Of a stretch of 64,000 bases of DNA, positions 19,773-53,637 are shown in pieces. The translations under genes were made by a program, and so were the position numbers. Each line of letters opens with the position of its first letter. Positions within the stretch are counted from its first letter, which is position 1. The stretch is from positions 61,422-125,421 of the IMG/VR virus record IMGVR_UViG_3300021168_000016; one strand, given 5' to 3'. Under the pieces are notes generated by a model, which saw only the letters and a program-made list of their open reading frames with translations, ran no database searches and was not told where the DNA came from. Origin of the DNA: a virus.

Positions 19773-20294
19773 GTGCATCGTGTCAAGGACAGTAGTAATG
19801 TTTACGGCCTGGATTGGAAAGATAACAATCTCGACGTAACCTATAAACTCAACAAGAATTCAGACATGCCGGGAGAGACGTATCGTTATTTTGGGGTTCC
19901 TGAAGGAATATTTATTCTTTGCTTAGCCGCAAGATCTAAAGGGGAATACTTAAACACATGGGTAAAACAGGTGGGGTATAGATACGAGAAACTACCACAG
20001 GCCCATGCTATAGCGAAAGAAGTCGAAAAGGAAGAAAGTGCGGAAGTCGACGAGGTCATTAAGTATTTAGAAGAGAAAGGACTAGTCAGAACAGAACTAG
20101 ACGACAATATGGTTAGACGTGTCGTTGTAACAGGAGATATTGCTCATGAAATCATTAACTCTTTTGTCTCACTGCCTGAAAGAATGAAGAAAAGTAAGAA
20201 TGCTCTGCGGAGAATCGTTGAAGGTATACTCAGACAGAATCTTGATCCAATACCGAAAGCACTAGCAGAATATATTCGGGAGAGGAAGAAATGA
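19773..20294 (+). CDS. KTSC-domain protein
   Basis: SSNV.G..W....L.V.Y....YRYFGVP......L.A.SKGEYLN..VK..Y.YEK. Confidence 0.75.
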   Translation: MHRVKDSSNVYGLDWKDNNLDVTYKLNKNSDMPGETYRYFGVPEGIFILCLAARSKGEYLNTWVKQVGYRYEKLPQAHAIAKEVEKEESAEVDEVIKYLEEKGLVRTELDDNMVRRVVVTGDIAHEIINSFVSLPERMKKSKNALRRIVEGILRQNLDPIPKALAEYIRERKK

Positions 20295-20986
20295 GATGGT
20301 TCGGAGAAAACTGGGGTGCTCCTATCTGTAAGACGACTAAGCACGCGCCAACTCCTGAAGGTTTACCCTGTGCTCATAACTGTCAACACAGCATCAGAGA
20401 GGGAGATATTGGAGTGCTTATCCCTTATACAGGTCCTCCTTTAGTACATGGGCAATACATAATGGCAGCTGGAATACCGCACATTGGCTACCACCTCGTC
20501 TGTTTCTTTGATGAAATCGGTATACGAGGGAAAACACATGACTGAACACATAGAAAAGATATACGCTCCTTGGACAGAAAGTGAAGTTCACGCTCTGAAT
20601 AAGTACCAGGTTTCTGGGCTTATGCATCCATTCACATGCGGTGAAGAACACGGGAGAGAATCTGTTCTAGAAGCTACAGTAGATGGATGGGTATGTCCAG
20701 TGCCCCTTTGCTATTACACCCAAGATTGGTGCTACAGCTGGATGATAAATATTGGAAAGGAAGAGGTATGACGGAAGTACATCTTGATGCAATAATGCCA
20801 AAGGAGCATGTACAGGAATTTCTGCAATTAATGCGTACATTTGATCTGACACATCCTGACTGTCATTTTGAGGTAACAACGAATGATACTAATATGACAG
20901 CTGAGGAAGCAAGAGCAATCCTAGAAAAGATTCAACCGCCATTCTCAAGTTTGAAGGAATATAAGGGAGGGAATTCATAATTTTAG

Positions 20987-21001
20987 AGTAGCGGTATATA
21001 T
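20987..21001 (+). promoter_or_regulatory. Phage-conserved promoter motif AGTAGCGGTATATA
   Basis: Identical 14-mer also at 35581 and 40083, each just upstream of an operon. Confidence 0.65.
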
Positions 21002-21008
21002 AAAATAT

Positions 21009-21479
21009 ATGGTCTACTTCATTCAAAGTGCCTGCCCAAAAGGGCTTATCAAGATAGGTAATTCGGATAAACCCTTAACCAGGTTGAAAGAACTTCAAAC
21101 AGCTAATGGTTACAAACTGACATTCCTGAAGATTATTCAGGGAGGTTATCAGGAAGAATTAATCACAAAGAAGAGATTCAGGCAGTTCCGTGTTTTGGAG
21201 GGCGGAACCGAGTGGTTTAAACCAGAAAAGGAACTACTCGATTACATCAAATCACTGGTATTAGAACAGGCATTTGAAATGCCTACTACTTACCAAGAAA
21301 TACCTGGAAAGTATGATCCGAGTATTATATCACAAACAGCACTACTTTCTTTGTCTAGTCGAAGACAACTTTCAAAGAGGACTGAGATAAGCAATGAACA
21401 ACTTCTTTCAACGGTGAAGAAGCAAGAATTACCTTCACGAATTGATTTTTCGTTACAAATCAAACTAAGGAGAATATGA
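21009..21479 (+). CDS. GIY-YIG nuclease (T5orf172/MUG113 type)
   Basis: VYFIQ...LIKIG.S..P..RLKELQTAN...EWFKP motifs. Confidence 0.85.
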   Translation: MVYFIQSACPKGLIKIGNSDKPLTRLKELQTANGYKLTFLKIIQGGYQEELITKKRFRQFRVLEGGTEWFKPEKELLDYIKSLVLEQAFEMPTTYQEIPGKYDPSIISQTALLSLSSRRQLSKRTEISNEQLLSTVKKQELPSRIDFSLQIKLRRI

Positions 21480-21480
21480 T

Positions 21481-22134
21481 ATGAGTACAGCAGAAGTAAT
21501 TCAGTTTGAGGAATCTGAATCTCAAGAGATTTCTCTTACAAAGATGTATGAAATCGCAGTAGAATCACTAAGTCCCGTCGGATTCGGACGATACTATGAA
21601 CGAGAATATCCGGCAACACCTGTGGAACAAAACAATAAAGAGACGTATGAAGAACGGACTTGGATGAAACGCCTCTGGATAAACGAAGACGGTAAAGTCT
21701 TCATTCCTGGAGTATCATTCAAAGGGGCGTATGTAAACGCTGCGGGACAGAATATGCTCCCTGATAGAGTTCCAAATACTGGGAATAAAGGGACTTACAC
21801 GAAACACTTCGCTGCTGGTTTCCATGTTATCAACAATGTTGTTACTGAATATACTGAAGCAGATGTTGTCAGGAATAAATGGGGAAAGTGGTTACATGTT
21901 CCCGCAAATGCACAACGAGGAGGGAAGACAAGGGTTATGCGCTGCTTCCCAACAATCCCAAAGTGGGCCGGCAAACTACAGGTAATCACCCATGATCCTT
22001 GTTTGACTAAAGATATCCTAAAGCGTTTCGGAGATGCAGCAGGGTTAGTAATTGGCGTCGGTTCTCTTCGTGTCCAAAACAACGGAATGTGGGGGCAATT
22101 CCGAGTAGTTTCTGTAGAAGAAAAAGCTTTTTAA
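21481..22134 (+). CDS. Stand-alone RAMP/Cas7-like RNA-binding protein (candidate guide-RNA effector)
   Basis: ESLSP, VFIPGVSFKGAYVNAA (RAMP IPGxSxKG) and C-terminal glycine loop IGVGSLRVQNNGMWGQFRV; no other cas genes nearby. Confidence 0.7.
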   Translation: MSTAEVIQFEESESQEISLTKMYEIAVESLSPVGFGRYYEREYPATPVEQNNKETYEERTWMKRLWINEDGKVFIPGVSFKGAYVNAAGQNMLPDRVPNTGNKGTYTKHFAAGFHVINNVVTEYTEADVVRNKWGKWLHVPANAQRGGKTRVMRCFPTIPKWAGKLQVITHDPCLTKDILKRFGDAAGLVIGVGSLRVQNNGMWGQFRVVSVEEKAF

Positions 22135-22440
22135 GATTCGATGCGATGCAATACGCTGAAATATGATAGGATTTGATGGAATATAATCTAATCGGATTAG
22201 ATTTGATAAGATACGAAGTATTTTTATACTGGAATTATGATAGGATCAGATCAAATCTGATGGAATCAAATCGGATAAAATAAGATCGAATGTGATCTGA
22301 GAGAATGAGATTTAATTTGATAAGATATGAAGTATTTTTATACTGGAATTATCATGCGATGAGATAAGATGTAATATAATCTGATACCATCAGCCAAGAT
22401 CTGTTTTGATGGGACCGGATGCGATATGATACGAGATTTT
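22135..22440 (+). ncRNA. Pentamer-coded guide array (RAT-NN), 3 units
   Basis: Strict 5-nt phase, mostly GAT/AAT + variable NN (16, 18 and 16 pentamers); units separated by repeated GATAAGATAYGAAGTATTTTTATACTGGAATTAT (22205-22238, 22319-22352) containing an AGTAT-TTTT-ATACT hairpin. Confidence 0.75.
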
Positions 22441-22459
22441 TCACTTTCGGAGAATCTCT

Positions 22460-23164
22460 GTGCTACAAGACTCCCTCGACAAAATAATCGGAACATACTT
22501 TGCAGGAATTACTCGATCAAGTTTTACTTACAAAGACAGAGTCTACCCACCACAAAATCTTTTAGTAAGTCATTTGTTGTTTAGAGGATACACTTGTCCT
22601 GAAAATTGTGGAGGGTGTTGTCCGCGATTTTCTCTGGATTACCTGACCTCAGAGTACTGTCCGATGCCACAAGTCAAACTCAGGGAAGTTGACTTTAATG
22701 GGAGTAAGATTCCCATTATATCCGATATGCAACTTGATCATCAGGACCACCATTGCAAAAATCTGACTAAATCAAACGGCAGATGCGGAATTCACGGAAA
22801 CCAACCATTTTCATGTGATTTTGAATTATGTCGATTTCTAACCTTCAATGACAGAAATGTATTAACTTCCAAATTATTCGGTAGAGGCTGGGCTTTTCTT
22901 CGAACCGATAACGAAAGAGGAGCTCTTTGTGAGATGCTTCCAGTCACTAAAGAAACGATTGACGAAGTCATAAGGAAGCTGATCCGATTAAAGCAGTGGG
23001 CAGAGTATTTCGGCGTCGATCATTGCTTAGACGCTATAATCCAATGGGCAAGATCAGGATCAGGAATGGATCTTCTTATCCCGAAACACAAAAAGGTGGG
23101 ACTAAATATAAAAAGCATTTCCGGCCCGCAAGAAGAAGACCCGTTAATTCAAATAGAGTTATGA
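22460..23164 (+). CDS. YkgJ-like CxxxCxxCC Zn/Fe-cluster protein
   Basis: CPENCGGCC...HHCKNL...GRCGIHGNQPFSC. Confidence 0.6.
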   Translation: MLQDSLDKIIGTYFAGITRSSFTYKDRVYPPQNLLVSHLLFRGYTCPENCGGCCPRFSLDYLTSEYCPMPQVKLREVDFNGSKIPIISDMQLDHQDHHCKNLTKSNGRCGIHGNQPFSCDFELCRFLTFNDRNVLTSKLFGRGWAFLRTDNERGALCEMLPVTKETIDEVIRKLIRLKQWAEYFGVDHCLDAIIQWARSGSGMDLLIPKHKKVGLNIKSISGPQEEDPLIQIEL

Positions 23165-23613
23165 AAAAACTACCTATTAGAAACAGAAAACTCCCTAAGA
23201 AGGGGCTGCTTCGCAAGAAAAAGGAATTCTGTAAAACAAGCCACCCATTGTGGAATGTTTACTCTAGTATGGACACTAGGTGTAATAAGGATAATAGTTC
23301 CGACTACCGCCACTATGGCGGACGAGGAATTAAAATGTGTGAAAGATGGTCGTCTTCACTTAAAAATGATAAAGGCTTCTGGAATTTTATAGAAGATATG
23401 GGTCCAAGACCTGAAGGTCGTACACCTTCAGGAAAACGGCCTGCTTTCACACTAGAACGTAGAGATAATAATCTAGGTTACAGCAAAAAAAACTGCTACT
23501 GGGCACCTTGGAAGGAACAAGCCAATAATAGACGAAAACCTAAAAGCATCGCTCAACTGGCTAGAGCCAAAGCGTTTACTAATGTTATGAGATTAGGATT
23601 CTACGGTAGTTAA
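23161..23613 (+). CDS. HNH-type homing endonuclease-like protein
   Basis: YRHYGGRGIKMCERW...F..DMGPRP...TLERRDNNLGYSKKNCYWA..KEQANNR. Confidence 0.75.
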   Translation: MKKLPIRNRKLPKKGLLRKKKEFCKTSHPLWNVYSSMDTRCNKDNSSDYRHYGGRGIKMCERWSSSLKNDKGFWNFIEDMGPRPEGRTPSGKRPAFTLERRDNNLGYSKKNCYWAPWKEQANNRRKPKSIAQLARAKAFTNVMRLGFYGS

Positions 23614-23764
23614 AGAAGGTAGGCTTGAACATAAAGAGTATCGGACTCGTAGAAGAAGAACCTCTCATCCAAATTACACATTAGTAATCATGAATTTCGG
23701 ATTTTTCATCTGATGATGAAGCACGAATCGTGATGTTTACAAATAACAGAAAAGGAGAAGAAAA

Positions 23765-24046
23765 ATGCCGGAAGATAGAATGAAAGTTATTGCAGCTAAA
23801 CTGCTCAACCTATTCGGTGCTAGAGGCCAGCACTGGATAAGAGGTGAAGAAAGCAACGGTAATGGCGACTACTGCCTGATAGGTGGTATGAAAGAGTTAA
23901 ACCTTACTCATGAAATGAAAACGTTACAAAGAGCTGTACGTGAAAAGACAAAGCATACTTCCATCGCAGCATTTAACGACCAGCACTACTGGCCTACCAT
24001 CAAAGACTTTCTCTGCAGTTACATCCGTCCGAAAGTAAAGAAATAA
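23765..24046 (+). CDS. Hypothetical protein (W..G...YCLIG...FND family; related to 38464-38811)
   Basis: Shared C-[LA]-[IL]-G and ND motifs. Confidence 0.5.
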   Translation: MPEDRMKVIAAKLLNLFGARGQHWIRGEESNGNGDYCLIGGMKELNLTHEMKTLQRAVREKTKHTSIAAFNDQHYWPTIKDFLCSYIRPKVKK

Positions 24047-43364: not shown

Positions 43365-43650
43365 GATTTGACATGGCCTGACCCGGTTAGGTAGGGTAAG
43401 GTTAGCTCCGGTGACACCAGGTTAGGTGCGGCTGGCAAGGATTAAGATTTGACACGGTGAGGTGTGGTCGCGTATGGCGGGGTAAGGTTTATCTTGGCGA
43501 GGTAAGGTTAGGCTGGCTAGGTGAGGTTCGTTGCGGTACGGTTAGCCACACTTTGGCTAGGTAGGGTAGGACGCGGTTAGGCTGACGTGGTGGAGCAGGG
43601 CACGGCTTGAAATGGCTCGGTGTGGTAGGGTTGGGCGTGGACCGGCAAGG
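43362..43650 (+). ncRNA. Pentamer-coded guide array (GGY-NN), 4 units
   Basis: 5-nt phase, mostly GGT/GGC + NN, 12-13 pentamers per unit; leader TAAGATTTGACA (43362, 43443), junction GGCT, terminal GGCAAGG (43434, 43644). Confidence 0.75.
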
Positions 43651-43696
43651 CCGTTCTATTTTTGGTGTCAACTCGAGGACGAAGAGGAAAAAGAAT

Positions 43697-48660: not shown

Positions 48661-48747
48661 GGAAATGACGCGGCTAGGTTGGGCGCTGCGTGGACTGGTA
48701 TGGTAAGGTCCGGCGCGGTTGGGTATGGTAAGGTTAGGCAGGCAAGG
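48661..48747 (+). ncRNA. Single GGY-NN guide unit
   Basis: GAC-start, 14 pentamers, GGCAGGCAAGG end, as in the 43.4-kb array. Confidence 0.75.
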
Positions 48748-48759
48748 AAAGGTAAATCA

Positions 48760-49227
48760 ATGGGGGAAGATCGAGAACCAACTTTCAAGGCTGAAAAGTA
48801 CCGCTGGTTGAAGCAGAGAGTTCGACTTGATCTTCTCTACATTGACGAAGATATTCAGGAACTACCTATTCTTCTTCAGGAAGCAGGAGAAAACACAGCA
48901 GTAGCACTAGAGCGAAGAGAATCAACGAAGGCAGATCTTGAGACACAGGAAGCAGTAACAGCAAATAGGCTTAGGCGGGATGAGTACAATGGAAAGAAGT
49001 CAGAGGCTGCTATCGCAAGCATGATACCGCTTGATGAAGACTACCAAAGGATCCAAAAAGATCTAAGCGAAGCTAGACTAGATGCTTCACTCTGGATGAA
49101 TTTGATGGATACGTTACGCTCTAAATCGTCTCTAGTCAGAGCTTCAGCAGATCTAGTACAAGCAGGGTTTATTTCTACCGTTCACTACACCGAAAAGAGA
49201 AAACGAGACTTGAGAACGCCGTCATGA
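48760..49227 (+). CDS. UvsY-like recombination mediator
   Basis: Helical protein with SEAAIASMI..DEDY; located between clamp loader and SSB. Confidence 0.55.
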   Translation: MGEDREPTFKAEKYRWLKQRVRLDLLYIDEDIQELPILLQEAGENTAVALERRESTKADLETQEAVTANRLRRDEYNGKKSEAAIASMIPLDEDYQRIQKDLSEARLDASLWMNLMDTLRSKSSLVRASADLVQAGFISTVHYTEKRKRDLRTPS

Positions 49228-50403: not shown

Positions 50404-51954
50404 ATGTTAGCAGTTAATGAGATCTACGGACCAGTAGCACAGGGAGAAGGGGCATCCTCTGGGATGCCCTGTATCTTCCTTCGGCTATCCGGATGTAACC
50501 TAGCCTGTATTTGGTGTTTCATAGGCTATACAAAGATTGCTACGCCTAAAGGATCAAGGAACATCAAGGACATTCGCGTTGGAGACTTAGTACTAAGCTC
50601 TGACGGAAGAATCATAGTCCCAAAGAAAGTAACGAAAATCTTTAAAAGAGAAACTTCTAAAGATGAAATCGTTAGAGTTTTAGTTGAGGGCGATCCGGGT
50701 GTGGTAAATAATAGAGTCTACTGTACTAAGAATCATGAATTCTCAACAAATAGAGGTTGGGTTTCTGCGCAAGATTTAAAGCCCGGTGATGAAATTGAAT
50801 TTGTAGATAACATCAACTGGCATATGAAAAATGATAACCCCTCCTGTAGACCTGAAGCTAAGCAACGATTATCGGAAATGGGTAAACGAATACATACCGG
50901 TAGAAGGGCATCTACAGAGACACGACTACGGTTAAGAGCATCTAAGTTGGGACCCAAGAATCCGCGGTATACCGGAACCTGTAATGATCCGGGATATTTA
51001 ACTCTTTGGTATAGAACAAGGAGGGATGTTCTAAAGAGGGATGGGTACAAATGTCAGAACTGCGGATCGACAGAAAACCTAGAAGTTCATCATAGTATTC
51101 CCTTCAAGATTTCTAAAAGTCATGATCCAGGTATTCTAATTACCCTCTGTAGATCATGTCATCGACAAGCCGAAAGACAGTTTCTTCACAACGGTAAGAA
51201 AGTTGTATCAGTAACACCTGTCAGCGTGAAGCAAGCAGCAAGATTCAATGGCAATAGTAAGGTAATTGAGGTCTACAATCTAGAAGTAGAGGATAACCAT
51301 ACCTACTTCGCCAATAGTTTTCTTGTGCATAATTGCGATACCCCTTACACATGGAATTGGGGAGGGACTAAGTTCGAGCATCCTGACAAGTATGATCCTA
51401 AACTTGAAATGCACACGATGTCTGTACAAGAGGTTAGTGATGAGATTTACGAGAAATCAGAAGGAATTAGGCTTCTAGTTATTTCAGGAGGCGAGCCGAT
51501 GCTACAGCAGTCAGCATTGATACACTTTCTGAGGAAGCTAAAAGATGAGAATCCCAACTGGTGGGTAGAAGTTGAGACTAATGGGACAGTTGAACCTCAT
51601 GATGAATTCATTACGTTGATAAATCAGTTCAACTGCTCTCCAAAGCTATCTAACGCAGGAAAGGATAACCCTCGTAGCAAGAGATTAAAGTTTCATGTAC
51701 TAAAGAAGATTAAGAATTCAGGTAAAGGTACATTCAAGTTTGTGATCCAATCAGAAATTGATCTAGAGGAGATGAGAGAGATTCTCCATATGGCTGAAAT
51801 ACCGCCAAGTAGTGTTTGGCTCATGCCGGAAGGACGTACTCGTGAGGAGCAGTTAGCTAGACAAGAGCAGGTTGAGCGGATGACTAAGGAACATGGCTAC
51901 AACTTTAGTCCCAGACTACACATCCTTGAACATGATAATAAGCGAGCTGTGTGA
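50404..51954 (+). CDS. queE: 7-carboxy-7-deazaguanine synthase with intein
   Basis: QGEG..SG.P..F.RLSGCNLACIW|intein|CDTPY, ISGGEPMLQ, ETNGT, CSPKL, PRLH. Confidence 0.93.
   Translation: MLAVNEIYGPVAQGEGASSGMPCIFLRLSGCNLACIWCFIGYTKIATPKGSRNIKDIRVGDLVLSSDGRIIVPKKVTKIFKRETSKDEIVRVLVEGDPGVVNNRVYCTKNHEFSTNRGWVSAQDLKPGDEIEFVDNINWHMKNDNPSCRPEAKQRLSEMGKRIHTGRRASTETRLRLRASKLGPKNPRYTGTCNDPGYLTLWYRTRRDVLKRDGYKCQNCGSTENLEVHHSIPFKISKSHDPGILITLCRSCHRQAERQFLHNGKKVVSVTPVSVKQAARFNGNSKVIEVYNLEVEDNHTYFANSFLVHNCDTPYTWNWGGTKFEHPDKYDPKLEMHTMSVQEVSDEIYEKSEGIRLLVISGGEPMLQQSALIHFLRKLKDENPNWWVEVETNGTVEPHDEFITLINQFNCSPKLSNAGKDNPRSKRLKFHVLKKIKNSGKGTFKFVIQSEIDLEEMREILHMAEIPPSSVWLMPEGRTREEQLARQEQVERMTKEHGYNFSPRLHILEHDNKRAV
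50515..51333 (+). mobile_element. Intein with HNH endonuclease in QueE
   Basis: Starts CFIGYTKI; CTKNHEF block B; RDGYKCQNCG...LEVHH...LCRSCH; ends VYNLEVEDNHTYFANSFLVHN/C. Confidence 0.92.
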
Positions 51955-52220
51955 GAAATTGGTCTAACAATCGATTTGTAACTAGATGTAAGCATGCAGC
52001 GCATGCTCGGAAGAACTGGGAAAAGACTAAAGATAACTTACATCCTGACTGCGGTAAGTTCAATAAGAACAAAAAGAGGTGTAAACGTGGACATCTTTTC
52101 ACACAAAAGAATACTCTCATTAACGCCGATGGAGCCCGGGTATGCAGAGAGTGCAGACGATACAACGAAAAGGCAAGGTATGATGCTAACGCAGCTAGGC
52201 CAAAAAGTAGAAACAGCTGA
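51951..52220 (+). CDS. HNH-associated CKRGH zinc-domain fragment
   Basis: [14 protein letters not shown]......RVCRECRR. Confidence 0.5.
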
Positions 52221-53637
52221 ATCGCCTGAGAAGTCTACTATAGAATGTGTCCCTGTTGAGATGGCAGAACTCAGGAATGCCGTAGCGAGATATTCTTGTC
52301 CTGAGTTCACTAGCCTTTGTCTGGCTGGTGATACACTAGTCGATGTATGTTGTAATGAAACAGAGTACCCAAAAGGTATTCCCATACAGCAGCTTGTAGG
52401 CACTGAAGGTTATGTATTCTCTTTTGATCCTTCAATGCGTCAACCGGTTGTCAAGAAATATTTCGATGTAAGAAAAACACAGGAAAATGTCCCTGTAGTT
52501 AAAGTTGAAATGCTGGCACTTCGAGGGACAAATACAATGGGAAGGAAATCAGAAACTGTAACAATACGTCTGACACCTGATCATTTAGTTCTTGTCATTA
52601 GGGGGTGGAATGGATACGAATGGGTTCCCGCAGGGAAACTAAAAATAGGAGACAGGATTTTCTCAGACCAACGTGGCAGAGGAGATACAATTAGATGTCA
52701 TTCAAGACATTCTCTAATTGCCCAATGCTTAATAGGAAGGAAACTTCGATCTGATGAAGATGCACATCACATCAATACTAATCATTTTGACAATACACCG
52801 ATAAATATAGAGGTACTAGCAGATGGAGAGCACTCTCGATTACATAGAAGTATGCAATATGGTTACGACGATATTATCGATGTGAATAAACTTGTTAAAC
52901 TTTATGAATCAAACCCAGAAATTTCTATCATTGATATTGCACAGGAATACAGATGCGATCCTTCAACAATTGAATCGAGACTTAAAGGAAGGACAAGAAT
53001 TAAATCGCAAGCTGAAATACTCCTAGCAAGGCGTTCTCGGGAACTTGAAAACGCTATGGAAGAATGTTCTGATTTGTATCAGGAGGGCTATACGACCAGA
53101 GAAATTAGTATGTACTTTGAAGTACATGATACAACTATATTGCAGTGGCTTAGAAAAAAAGGAATACAACTACGTGAATCAAATAGGAGTAGGGCATTAA
53201 GAAAGTCACTCGACTTACCGTCGTTAAATCATAAAGTTATTAGCGTTACTAGTGACGGTACTTCAGATGTTTACAATATGGAAGTTGAAGACACTGAATG
53301 TTTCTTCGCTAATGAAATCGTAGTTCACAATTGTCCTGTTACTGGACAGCCTGACTATGCAAAGCTATATATTGATGTAATTCCCAACATGTGGCTACCT
53401 GAATCAAAGAGCTTAAAGTTATTCCTAGGTGCCTTCAGACAGCACGGCGGCTTTCATGAAGAAACCACTGTCTATATTGGGACAAGGCTGCATGATGCTT
53501 GCCATCCCACATGGATCAGGATTGCAGGACTATGGTTTCCTCGCGGCGGCATCGGGATTGATTGTTTCTGGGAAAAAGGCCACAAAGGAACTACCTACGT
53601 ACCTACATTAAGGCAGAGAAATTATGAGGGAAGATAA
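52180..53637 (+). CDS. queF: PreQ0 reductase (type I) with intein
   Basis: PEFTSL|intein|[28 protein letters not shown]. Confidence 0.9.
52318..53331 (+). mobile_element. Intein with HNH endonuclease in QueF
   Basis: Starts CLAGDTLV; LTPDH; [21 protein letters not shown]; HTH repeats; ends [22 protein letters not shown]. Confidence 0.92.

What the first reader, a model, noticed from the sequence alone, without database searches (positions are those of the whole stretch)
20987..22440. Candidate RNA-guided system: GIY-YIG + lone RAMP/Cas7-like protein + pentamer-coded (RAT-NN) guide array
Seen: an operon of promoter motif, GIY-YIG nuclease and a 217-aa protein with RAMP signatures (IPGxSFKG, C-terminal G-loop). 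From its stop codon follow three units of 16, 18 and 16 pentamers in strict phase, mostly GAT/AAT plus a variable dinucleotide. The units are separated by a conserved hairpin linker, like a processing site. NN strings: U1 TC GC GC AC GA AT AG TT GG AT CT CG TA TT AA AC; U2 AG CA CA CT GG CA CG AA AA CG GT CT AG GA TT TT AA AT; U3 GC GA AA GT AT CT AC CA AA CT TT GG CG GC AT AC. This is not a CRISPR layout: the information is interleaved with the scaffold. Inference: RAMP subunits polymerise one per pentamer, bind the constant triplet and display NN for gapped target pairing. From memory (unverified), phage RAMP systems with GGY-NN RNAs (VIPR) have been reported recently; a RAT-NN code linked to a GIY-YIG would be a distinct variant.
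Basis: partly seen in the sequence, partly recalled or inferred. Interest (0 to 1): 0.95.

Follow-up and report, generated by a model that had tools for sequence, protein, structure and literature searches.

The report
Phage VIPR system with RAT-NN guides
A soil phage carries a VIPR system, a CRISPR-related RNA-guided DNA-silencing system first published in 2026, whose three guide RNAs use the fixed triplet (G/A)AT where the first-described systems use GGY.

Summary
At 22135-22432, three units of 16, 18 and 16 phased pentamers follow the stop codon of a 217-aa gene. 43 of 50 pentamers are RAT-NN, and nothing else in the window resembles this.

The 217-aa protein belongs to the Vipr family. A profile of its 56 homologues hits the solved SUSP1 Vipr protein at E=1e-10. 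Its model (pLDDT 92) matches Cas7/Csm3. 79 of 82 related loci carry 5-nt arrays beside the gene, with varied triplets such as GGC, GAC, GTC, GTT and CGC.

This is therefore a VIPR system, published in 2026 preprints that also report non-canonical triplets and solo guide RNAs. RAT itself is not named in the text I could read.

The GIY-YIG (T5orf172) link is unsupported. That gene occurs in none of 108 related loci and has no homologue in the protein database.

Unit 3 spells the conserved VILTQKLFGR motif of the neighbouring ykgJ-like gene as relatives carry it: 11/16 codons against 8/16 for the phage's own allele. No DNA-level target and no RNA data were found.

The genome also holds GGY-NN solo arrays but only one Vipr gene.

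This scan has found VIPR systems on other DNA before.

The parts
21009..21479 (+). T5orf172/MUG113 (GIY-YIG clan) gene of 156 aa. Its stop lies 1 base before the vipr start. Its membership of the system is unproven.
   Evidence: Pfam MUG113 E=1.4e-6 (29.2 bits, cut-off 22.3) and T5orf172 E=6.1e-5 (23.9 bits, cut-off 20). Atlas neighbours are viral T5orf172 clusters. It has no homologue other than itself in the protein search and is absent from the 108 related loci.
21481..22134 (+). vipr gene: 217-aa RAMP protein of the Vipr family.
   Evidence: 56 homologues. The family profile hits PDB 36pp_D 'SUSP1 Vipr protein' at E=1e-10. AF2 pLDDT 92.4. Foldseek top hits are type VII Cas7 and Csm3 at E about 3e-8. 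BFVD gives viral RAMP hits.
22135..22214 (+). vrRNA unit 1 repeat tract: 16 pentamers, 15 of them RAT-NN.
22215..22238 (+). Linker/tail 1, a 24-nt sequence identical to linker 2. It holds a 5-bp hairpin and the -10-like TATACT of a promoter-like site.
22239..22328 (+). vrRNA unit 2 repeat tract: 18 pentamers, 17 of them RAT-NN.
22329..22352 (+). Linker/tail 2, identical to linker 1.
22353..22432 (+). vrRNA unit 3 repeat tract: 16 pentamers, 11 of them RAT-NN. Its NN string, read as codon positions 1-2, spells D-x-V-I-L-T-Q-K-L-F-G-R.
22433..22459 (+). Predicted 10-bp hairpin closing the array, directly before the next gene.
22460..23164 (+). YkgJ-like cysteine-cluster gene. The site at 22847-22894 is the phage's own, diverged allele of the motif that unit 3 spells.
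   Evidence: Pfam CxxCxxCC 22.4 bits, just under the cut-off of 23. 420 homologues, some named YkgJ family by their sources. Site comparison.

Best explanation
This is a VIPR (Viral Interference Programmable Repeat) system of an uncultivated 125-kb soil phage.

Shown here:
- The 217-aa protein is a Vipr-family RAMP.
- Three tandem vrRNA genes follow it directly, each with 16-18 pentamers and a short conserved 3' segment.
- Relatives of the protein almost always have such arrays beside them.

Inferred from the published SUSP1 mechanism:
- One Vipr protomer binds each pentamer, flips out the constant triplet (here R-A-U instead of G-G-Y) and presents the NN dinucleotides.
- The filament pairs with double-stranded DNA, skipping every third target base.
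- It thereby silences genes of competing phages.

Inferred here for this locus:
- Positions that read G1 and G2 in SUSP1 Vipr (D177, W178, R138) are S195, L196 and F156. This fits a triplet with A in the middle.
- Unit 3 is aimed, in codon register, at the most conserved motif (VILTQKLFGR) of the ykgJ-like gene of related phages.
- The phage's own allele next to the array escapes through amino-acid changes and Leu/Arg codon-family swaps.
- The targets of units 1 and 2 are unknown.
- The T5orf172 gene is more likely a neighbouring or mobile gene than a conserved accessory.
For: Protein:
- The profile of 56 homologues hits 'SUSP1 Vipr protein' 36pp_D at E=1e-10 over the thumb, helix 2 and G-loop. 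The next hits have E of 0.1 or more.
- AF2 model pLDDT 92.4, pTM 0.84.
- 124 PDB chains at E<=1e-3, led by type VII Cas7 and Csm3.
- The window's protein keeps all 15 invariant family residues.

Array:
- 43/50 pentamers fit RAT, the NN columns are near maximal entropy, and the array is unique in the window.
- The RNA is not more structured than shuffles, z=-0.5, as expected for a protein-bound single strand.

Family:
- 79 of 82 loci have 5-nt arrays within 2.5 kb of the gene. 69 of 81 have one within 200 nt.
- The basal relatives of the window's protein (L005, L023, L009, L018) all have A in the middle of the triplet.

Context and targeting:
- It is a phage, with DNA polymerase, helicase and SbcC-like genes, and an IMG/VR virus record.
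- There is no self-target: the best own-genome NNx scores of 20/32, 22/36 and 22/32 equal the shuffle nulls.
- Unit 3 matches the closest ykgJ homologues in 11/16 codons, against 8/16 for the own allele. 150 shuffles reach at most 9.
- At DNA level the own allele scores 17/32, while 13 distant homologues score 15-23, mean 19.8. By my own reading of the eight codon rows that one search printed, four of them match all of the last 8 codons of the motif.
- Only the 1-nt-skip reading puts its best hits at that one site. Four of its five best hits in the 59 ykgJ loci lie about 380-445 nt into the gene, and the fifth (L257) is the same motif site.
Against: - There is no expression or binding evidence: no RNA run holds the locus.
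- The window's protein alone does not hit the SUSP1 Vipr chain; only the family profile does.
- The ~170-aa neighbour gene present in 87 of 108 related loci is absent from this genome, which is 87% complete. The system may therefore be incomplete.
- Unit 3 is the most degenerate unit, with 11/16 RAT pentamers.
- No DNA-level target was found. Four exact NNx core patterns gave 0 hits in the viral collection.
- The best full-length DNA score for unit 3 in 59 homologous loci, 23/32, only equals the shuffle maximum.
- The DNA of the closest relatives (P0002, P0003, P0058-P0064) could not be fetched.
Confidence: 0.88

Rival explanations
1. RNA-guided nuclease or homing cassette. The T5orf172/GIY-YIG protein would be the effector partner of this Vipr, in place of the usual accessory gene. 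Guide-bound filaments would recruit it to cut rival phages' alleles, and the cassette with its diverged neighbouring allele would then be copied in by repair.
For: - The gene's stop lies 1 base before the vipr start on the same strand.
- It passes the Pfam cut-offs for two GIY-YIG-clan families.
- The family's usual neighbour gene is missing here.
- Published VIPR types III-V carry nuclease or helicase accessory genes.
- Unit 3 spells the neighbouring gene as relatives carry it, not as this phage does.
Against: - The gene occurs in 0 of the 108 related loci and has no homologue other than itself in the word-based search of 5.8 billion proteins. No co-occurrence supports a partnership.
- T5orf172 genes are common free-standing phage genes.
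- Catalytic residues were judged only by eye.
- No cleavage evidence exists.
Confidence: 0.22
2. One protein, several dialects. This Vipr would tolerate purine-purine-pyrimidine triplets and load the RAT-NN units as well as the GGY/GRY-NN solo arrays elsewhere in the genome (43365-43658, 48667-48748 and one on the minus strand upstream of the window).
For: - Only one Vipr homologue is in the genome: E=2.7e-70, with the next hit above E=3.
- RAT and GGY are both subsets of RRY.
- The first solo unit itself mixes GAT, GAC, GGC and GGT repeats.
- 7 related loci have mixed GRC arrays and 3 have GKC arrays.
- The G-loop is nearly identical across relatives with different triplets.
- The residues that read the two G bases in SUSP1 are not conserved here.
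Against: - Arrays next to the gene are almost purely A at position 2 (47/50), while the distant arrays are mostly G. Two separate populations suggest two readers.
- The genome is 87% complete, so a second Vipr gene could lie in the missing part.
- Published solo vrRNAs work by using another element's Vipr.
Confidence: 0.35
3. The array would be a DNA-level element, such as iterons, phased protein-binding sites or a promoter cluster, and not a guide RNA gene.
For: - Each linker matches a sigma-70-type promoter at 10/12.
- No transcript evidence exists.
- A 5-bp period is half a helical turn.
Against: - 79 of 82 homologues of the adjacent RAMP gene carry equivalent arrays with hypervariable dinucleotides.
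- In SUSP1 such arrays are transcribed and co-purify with Vipr.
- The two variable columns are near maximal entropy, which is not expected for repeated binding sites.
Confidence: 0.03
4. A decaying remnant. The system would have lost its accessory gene and be drifting, so it would no longer function.
For: - The usual neighbour gene is absent.
- Unit 3 has 5 of 16 off-consensus triplets.
- The protein sits on a very long branch of 1.78.
Against: - The ORF is intact and keeps all 15 family-invariant residues.
- The model is confident, pLDDT 92.
- The two linkers are identical.
- Units 1 and 2 are 94% on consensus.
- Two closer homologues at 79% and 67% identity share the N-terminal extension, so the lineage persists.
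Confidence: 0.07

Closest known systems
VIPR systems (Vipr + vrRNA), reference type II of Escherichia phage SUSP1. Sources: bioRxiv 10.64898/2026.04.26.720920 (Results, Discussion and three Methods sections read) and 10.64898/2026.04.26.720927 (two Results sections read).
   Same: A lone ~20-kDa RAMP protein homologous to SUSP1 Vipr. It is phage-encoded, with no cas genes or CRISPR array. Several ~100-nt units of tandem pentamers follow the gene, each with 3 fixed and 2 hypervariable bases and a conserved 3' segment. There is no self-target under the 1-nt-skip rule.
   Different: The fixed triplet is R-A-T, not G-G-Y. There are 16-18 repeats against the published 9-16. The 3' segment is a 24-nt piece with a 5-bp hairpin, not a pseudoknot tail. 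SUSP1's G-reading residues D177, W178 and R138 align to S195, L196 and F156. There is no vap1-like or family-typical accessory gene. A T5orf172 gene lies upstream.
VIPR arrays with non-canonical repeat units. Source: bioRxiv 10.64898/2026.10.21.760802 (passages found by term search read; figure S10 not visible).
   Same: Five-base period, a fixed trinucleotide other than GGY, and a Vipr-like fold next to the array. That paper names GAC/NN, CAC/NN, WGT/NN and TGH/NN in 21 clusters.
   Different: RAT/NN is not among the motifs named in the passages I read, and I could not see the full list in the figure. That paper says its non-canonical motifs repeat 10 times; here they repeat 16-18 times.
Solo (orphan) vrRNAs and wobble-aligned targeting. 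Source: bioRxiv 10.64898/2026.10.15.759431 (abstract, one Results section and Discussion read).
   Same: Guides aligned to codon positions 1-2 of conserved residues. Self-match scores are lower than matches to rivals. Solo vrRNAs lie away from any vipr gene, also on VIPR-positive phages.
   Different: There, solo vrRNAs share the GGY repeat type of the Vipr they exploit. Here the Vipr-adjacent arrays use RAT and the solo arrays use GGY within one genome.
Class 1 CRISPR backbone subunits: Cas7 of type VII and Csm3 of type III.
   Same: Fold: an RRM core, a thumb hairpin and a glycine-rich loop between helix 2 and the last strand. There are weak Csm5 profile hits.
   Different: No CRISPR repeats or spacers, no other cas genes, one protomer per 5 nt rather than 6, and the guide information is interleaved with the scaffold.
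Free-standing GIY-YIG homing endonucleases of T-even phages (Seg proteins, marker exclusion). Recalled, not from a call.
   Same: A small phage GIY-YIG-clan gene sits next to a gene whose allele differs from that of relatives.
   Different: No evidence here that the T5orf172 protein cuts DNA or recognises a site. Any targeting would be supplied by RNA, which is not known for Seg enzymes.

Membership tests
VIPR system | Vipr protein: a single-RRM RAMP with a thumb and a glycine-rich loop. | tested here: met
   AF2 model pLDDT 92.4 with beta-alpha-beta-beta-alpha-beta order, hairpin 135-159 and G-loop 192-205 before the last strand. Foldseek matches Cas7/Csm3 at probability 1.0.
VIPR system | Sequence homology to an established Vipr protein. 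| tested here: met
   The family profile A1 hits PDB 36pp_D 'SUSP1 Vipr protein' at E=1e-10, 44.8 bits. The window's sequence alone gives no such hit.
VIPR system | Adjacent tandem pentanucleotide repeats with three conserved and two hypervariable positions. | tested here: met
   50 pentamers in three units. Column entropies are 1.08/0.38/0.38 against 1.93/1.95 bits. The array is unique in the window.
VIPR system | Repeat consensus GGY-NN (YNNGG), or the variants NNNGG, YNNNG and NNNNG listed in the discovery paper. | tested here: not met
   The consensus is RAT-NN with A at the second position in 47/50 pentamers. The listed variants all keep the second G. A later preprint accepts other triplets such as GAC as divergent VIPR.
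VIPR system | A conserved 3' tail after each repeat tract. | tested here: met
   An identical 24-nt segment follows units 1 and 2, with a predicted 5-bp hairpin. Unit 3 ends in a different 10-bp hairpin. No pseudoknot was sought.
VIPR system | Minimal locus on a virus, with no cas genes and no CRISPR array. | tested here: met
   The record is a virus record with phage replication genes. Neighbours are T5orf172 and YkgJ-like genes. PADLOC finds nothing but weak Csm5 hits on the Vipr itself.
VIPR system | An accessory vap gene. | tested here: inconclusive
   The ~170-aa neighbour found in 87 of 108 related loci is absent from this genome. The T5orf172 gene is a candidate replacement without any co-occurrence support.
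VIPR system | vrRNAs are transcribed and bound by Vipr. | not testable with these tools
   No RNA run holds the locus.
VIPR system | Targets are recognised with a 1-nt skip, aligned to codons, and there is no self-target. | tested here: inconclusive
   No self-target was found. Unit 3 matches relatives' ykgJ motif in codon register at protein level, 11/16 against a shuffle maximum of 9. No DNA match of 80% or more was found.
Class 1 CRISPR-Cas | A CRISPR array of direct repeats and spacers, plus further cas genes. | tested here: not met
   No such repeats were found by TRF or by reading 20700-22800. There are no Cas families on the neighbours.
GIY-YIG superfamily (T5orf172/MUG113) | The protein passes the curated family thresholds. 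| tested here: met
   MUG113 29.2 bits (cut-off 22.3) and T5orf172 23.9 bits (cut-off 20) over residues 2-80.
GIY-YIG superfamily (T5orf172/MUG113) | An intact catalytic Tyr/Arg/Glu set and nuclease activity. | not tested
   I saw a VYFI...IKIG...R...E pattern only by eye in the translation. No alignment to a solved nuclease was made.

The most novel reading that the evidence does not exclude
Repeat-dialect orthogonality in phage warfare. Under this reading the phage's own Vipr has shifted to reading R-A-U triplets, so rivals' GGY-type solo guides cannot hijack it. The phage's own GGY-NN solo arrays would hijack the GGY-reading Viprs of co-infecting rivals. The frequent triplet switches across the Vipr tree (33 changes among 81 proteins) would then be the trace of an arms race over the scaffold code itself. 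Guides such as unit 3 would be aimed at relatives' alleles of the adjacent gene, and the operonic T5orf172 nuclease might turn silencing into cutting.
Probability: 0.15. Interest if true: 0.8.

Novelty: new member of a known kind. Interest (0 to 1): 0.42.

Why it matters
VIPR was first described in 2026, and only GGY-type systems have been tested at the bench. A natural Vipr that pairs with R-A-U triplets lacks the residues that read the two G bases in SUSP1. It also shares a genome with GGY-type solo arrays. This makes it a ready test case for two questions. How is the scaffold triplet read? Can orthogonal Vipr/vrRNA pairs coexist, which would be useful for multiplexed programmable repression?

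The unit-3 result adds a further natural example of the published principle that guides aim at codon positions 1-2 of constrained residues while the carrier's own allele escapes.

As a kind of system, however, it is already described.

Tried and rejected
**Repeat and RNA-family searches.** Tandem Repeats Finder found no rows and Rfam found no family. The repeat is too degenerate for TRF and has no Rfam model.

**Structure.** A single-sequence AF2 model had pLDDT 33 and was unusable. It was replaced by the alignment-based model.

**GenBank phages.** blastn of 20000-24000 and tblastn of the Vipr protein gave no match.

**Other RAT-NN arrays.** All were simple microsatellites with at most 7 NN types. 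None of the 118 encodes a Vipr homologue. This is uninformative about how common RAT-NN arrays are.

**Targets at DNA level.**
- The full unit-1 NNx pattern with up to 3 mismatches gave 0 hits in the phage's own genome.
- Exact NNx cores of unit 3 (22 and 20 specified bases), unit 1 (NN 2-11) and unit 2 (NN 2-11) each gave 0 hits in the viral collection.
- No unit, RAT or GGY, matched the 108 Vipr loci above shuffles.
- Units 1 and 2 had no in-ORF protein-level match in the phage's own genome.
- A single-protein scan of the viral collection for close ykgJ relatives found none.

**Expression.** No RNA holder was listed. Two soil-metagenome DNA runs were listed. One probably is the source. The other holds only 151 bases inside the T5orf172 gene.

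**Considered and rejected.**
- Iterons or binding-site arrays, because the arrays co-occur with Vipr genes across 79 of 82 loci.
- A CRISPR mini-array, because there is no repeat-spacer structure.
- The G-loop as the sole determinant of the triplet. It is nearly identical across relatives with GGC, GAC, GTC, GTT and CGC.

**Supplements.** Supplementary files and figures of the three VIPR preprints could not be seen. They may list RAT/NN or place this Vipr clade in one of the seven types.
Full report
**1. Observation**

Directly after the stop codon of ORF 21481-22134 lie three tracts of pentamers in phase:
- U1, 22135-22214, 16 pentamers.
- U2, 22239-22328, 18 pentamers.
- U3, 22353-22432, 16 pentamers.

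An identical 24-nt linker separates them, at 22215-22238 and 22329-22352.

RAT fits 15/16, 17/18 and 11/16 pentamers. The three fixed columns carry 1.08, 0.38 and 0.38 bits of entropy, and the two variable ones 1.93 and 1.95. An in-phase count of RAT over 12 pentamers reaches 12 only here in the 64-kb window. All + strand counts of 7 or more fall at 22115-22378. The - strand reaches 7 only at 22238-22302, inside the array.

Tandem Repeats Finder and Rfam report nothing. The phase is strict inside units but not across the 24-nt linkers.

**2. The protein**

The 217-aa product has no Pfam family. It has 56 homologues in the large protein collection, all unnamed.

A profile of their alignment (A1) hits one solved structure, 36pp_D 'SUSP1 Vipr protein', at E=1e-10 over the thumb, the second helix and the glycine-rich loop. 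The next hits are noise at E of 0.1 or more. The window's sequence alone does not reach it.

With the alignment, AlphaFold2 gives pLDDT 92.4 and pTM 0.84. The single-sequence model was useless.

Structure and profile comparisons agree on a RAMP fold:
- Foldseek finds 124 PDB chains at E<=1e-3, led by type VII Cas7 and Csm3.
- In the viral structure library it finds 4 matches at E<=1e-3, one named a RAMP superfamily protein.
- Weak Csm5 profile hits agree.

The RAMP reading is therefore correct, and the protein is a member of the Vipr family.

**3. What is known**

VIPR systems were described in 2026. They comprise a phage-borne lone RAMP (Vipr), vrRNAs of 9-16 YNNGG repeats with a conserved 3' tail, recognition of double-stranded DNA with one skipped base per dinucleotide, and silencing of rival elements.

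The structure paper shows one protomer per repeat. G1 is read by H17 and D177. G2 is held by R138 and W178. Y3 sits in a pocket with R179.

In the alignment, SUSP1 D177, W178, R179 and R138 fall on S195, L196, R197 and F156 of the window's protein. The mapping of residue numbers is my own count on that alignment. The residues that read the two guanines are thus not kept, which fits a triplet with A in the middle.

A later preprint reports 21 clusters of VIPR-like arrays with other triplets: GAC, CAC, WGT and TGH. Another reports solo vrRNAs, wobble-aligned targeting of constrained codons, and lower self-match than rival-match.

RAT/NN is not named in any text I could read. The figures and supplements that list all motifs were not visible.

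**4. Relatives**

The A1 profile found 283 relatives in viral contigs, of which the best 80 were kept. It found 27 in species-representative genomes, mostly MAGs of many phyla. One was found in metagenome contigs.

A general detector of 5-nt periodicity found arrays within 2.5 kb of the gene in 79 of 82 loci, counting the window. L006, L057 and L063 had none, and L006 ends right after the gene. An array lay within 200 nt of the gene in 69 of 81 loci.

The dominant triplet per locus was as follows:

| Triplet | Loci |
|---|---|
| GGC | 40 |
| GRC | 7 |
| GAC | 6 |
| CGC | 5 |
| CTC (GAG on the other strand) | 4 |
| GTC | 3 |
| GKC | 3 |
| GTT | 2 |
| GTY | 2 |
| GAY, KAC, GGT, GGY, AGT, ACM, RAT | 1 each |

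On a quick maximum-likelihood tree of 81 proteins, the labels need 33 changes. The minimum is 16 and the shuffled mean is 40.7. The window's protein sits on a long branch (1.78), weakly next to L009 (GAY), near L018 (KAC) and L005/L023 (GAC).

These basal members share a G-loop of the form G-x-G-[S/A]-[L/F]-R-V, and all have A at the second position. The G-loop of the rest (GIGRFRPRNNG) is the same whatever the triplet. RAT is thus the far end of a spectrum, not an isolated code.

**5. Accessory genes**

In 87 of 108 related loci a ~170-aa gene lies beside vipr, usually downstream after one array. It has no Pfam family. It belongs to large viral clusters with a faint GntR-like resemblance, TM 0.44-0.45, which is a lead only.

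A profile of this gene finds nothing in the window's genome; the best E is 0.37. The genome is 87% complete.

The window's upstream gene passes the Pfam cut-offs for MUG113 and T5orf172, and its Atlas neighbours are viral T5orf172 clusters. It is, however, a singleton among the 108 loci, and the word-based search of 5.8 billion proteins found only the protein itself. Its tight spacing with vipr is the only argument for a partnership.

**6. Biogenesis**

The array RNA is no more stable than shuffles (z=-0.5). Both linkers fold into a 5-bp hairpin, and a 10-bp hairpin closes the array at 22433-22459.

Each linker, together with the last repeats before it, matches TTGATA-16 nt-TATACT at 10 of 12 positions, at 22203-22230 and 22317-22344. 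By my own estimate from the usual spacing after a -10 element, transcription would then start close to the first pentamer of the next unit. Separate promoters and hairpin processing both remain possible. The host's promoter type is unknown.

**7. Targets**

In the phage's own genome the best 1-nt-skip scores of the three units are 20/32, 22/36 and 22/32. These equal the shuffle nulls, so there is no self-target.

Following earlier notes of this scan, I tested unit 3 against the next gene, 22460-23164. This is a YkgJ-like cysteine-cluster protein with 420 homologues.
- Read as codon positions 1-2, unit 3 gives A-[DE]-[KN]-V-[IM]-L-T-[HQ]-[KN]-L-[FL]-G-R-A-[IM]-T.
- The closest homologues (P0059, P0060, P0061, P0063, and also P0114) carry x-D-R-V-I-L-T-Q-K-L-F-G-R and match 11 of 16 positions.
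- The phage's own protein (N-D-R-N-V-L-T-S-K-L-F-G-R) matches 8.
- 150 shuffles of the NN order reach at most 9, and do so three times.
- In the phage's own genome the 7-of-8 match LTSKLFGR is the only one of three such hits that lies in a long ORF (244 codons). Shuffles give 0.05-0.23 hits.

At DNA level:
- The own allele matches 17/32, with both Leu as TTA against CT in the guide and Arg as AGA against CG.
- Genome-wide, Leu is TTR in 33% and Arg is AGR in 51% of cases. The chance of this combination is about 0.056.
- Among 59 homologous loci from viral contigs, the motif was found in 13. Their site scores are 15-23 of 32, mean 19.8. By my own reading of the eight codon rows printed there, four (L249, L256, L252, L227) match all of the last 8 codons of the motif.
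- The best full-length score, 23/32, only equals the shuffle maximum.
- Of the four skip rules, only the 1-nt skip puts its best hits at one site. Four of its five best hits lie about 380-445 nt into the gene, and the fifth (L257) is the same motif site.
- Exact core patterns of units 1, 2 and 3 gave no hit in the viral collection.
- No unit matches the 108 Vipr loci.

I conclude that unit 3 is probably aimed at relatives' ykgJ alleles. This is inferred at protein level only, and the DNA of the closest relatives could not be fetched. The targets of units 1 and 2 are unknown.

**8. Other arrays in the genome**

The general detector also finds GGY/GRY-NN arrays at 43365-43658 and 48667-48748, and one on the minus strand 11.4 kb before the window. 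The A1 profile finds only one Vipr gene in the genome.

Two of these four solo units have their best own-genome 1-nt-skip match in the gene next to them:
- 21/30 at 49147-49190.
- 23/32 at about 11.2 kb before the window, a score that 1 of 100 shuffles reaches.

Two explanations are open. One is that this Vipr tolerates purine-purine-pyrimidine triplets and loads all the arrays. Mixed GRC and GKC arrays in relatives, and GAT/GAC repeats inside the first solo unit, point that way. The other is that the GGY arrays use rivals' Viprs, as published for solo vrRNAs. I cannot decide between them.

**9. Verdict**

That includes non-GGY triplets, solo guides and wobble-aligned targeting.

What is particular here:
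- The R-A-T triplet.
- The longer tracts.
- The missing family accessory gene.
- An unconserved T5orf172 neighbour.
- Two repeat types in one genome.

This scan has already met VIPR systems with GAY, GAC and GUU triplets, and guides aimed at the neighbouring gene of siblings, on other DNA. Those are unchecked notes, not independent evidence.

No expression data exist for this locus.

Noticed in passing
window 43365-43658: Solo GGY/GRY-NN pentamer arrays lie between two genes without Pfam families, far from the only vipr gene. There are at least two units starting GATTT-GAC, then frame-shifted further tracts ending in GGCAAGG. The first unit mixes GAT, GAC, GGC and GGT triplets.
   Followed up: partly
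window 48667-48748 and 49147-49191: A single GGY-NN unit lies before a 204-aa ORF. Its reverse-complement NN string matches that ORF's C-terminal ADLVQAGFISTVHYT in 10 of 15 codons (0 of 40 shuffles reach this) and 21/30 bases. This is the best own-genome hit and is only partial.
   Followed up: partly
genome 49926-50014 (11.4-11.5 kb before the window's start), minus strand: Another GGY-NN unit lies here. Its best own-genome 1-nt-skip match (23/32; 1 of 100 shuffles reaches it) lies within about 300 nt of it.
   Followed up: partly
window 22203-22230 and 22317-22344: Both array linkers, with the last repeats before them, match a sigma-70-type promoter (TTGATA, 16 nt, TATACT; 10/12). By my estimate a transcript would then begin close to the next unit.
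   Followed up: partly
window 50404-51954 and 51994-53637: A QueE-like radical-SAM gene and a QueF-like gene each carry an intein; the first also has an HNH domain. With the GTP-cyclohydrolase-like PHROG hit, this suggests a 7-deazaguanine DNA-modification pathway in this phage.
   Followed up: no
L001:5624-6148 and equivalents in 87 of 108 loci: A conserved ~170-aa gene without a Pfam family lies next to vipr in this Vipr clade, probably its accessory gene. It has a faint GntR-like structural resemblance and is absent from the window's genome.
   Followed up: partly
L001-L108: The fixed triplet of the arrays changes often among close Vipr relatives with identical G-loops (for example L037 and L048 with GGC against L080 with GAC). 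Some arrays mix two triplets (GRC in 7 loci, GKC in 3).
   Followed up: partly
L010, L034, L045, L055: In this clade the arrays downstream of vipr read CTC-NN on the gene's strand, that is GAG-NN on the opposite strand. L010 also has a GAG-NN array upstream on the gene's strand.
   Followed up: no
L225, minus strand from about 4202: An 11-unit GAT-NN run with 7 different NN dinucleotides lies in a viral contig. No Vipr homologue is in the fetched 5.4 kb.
   Followed up: no
window 21481-21552: The Vipr proteins of the window, P0002 and P0003 share an acidic N-terminal extension of about 24 residues that the other 53 aligned homologues mostly lack.
   Followed up: no
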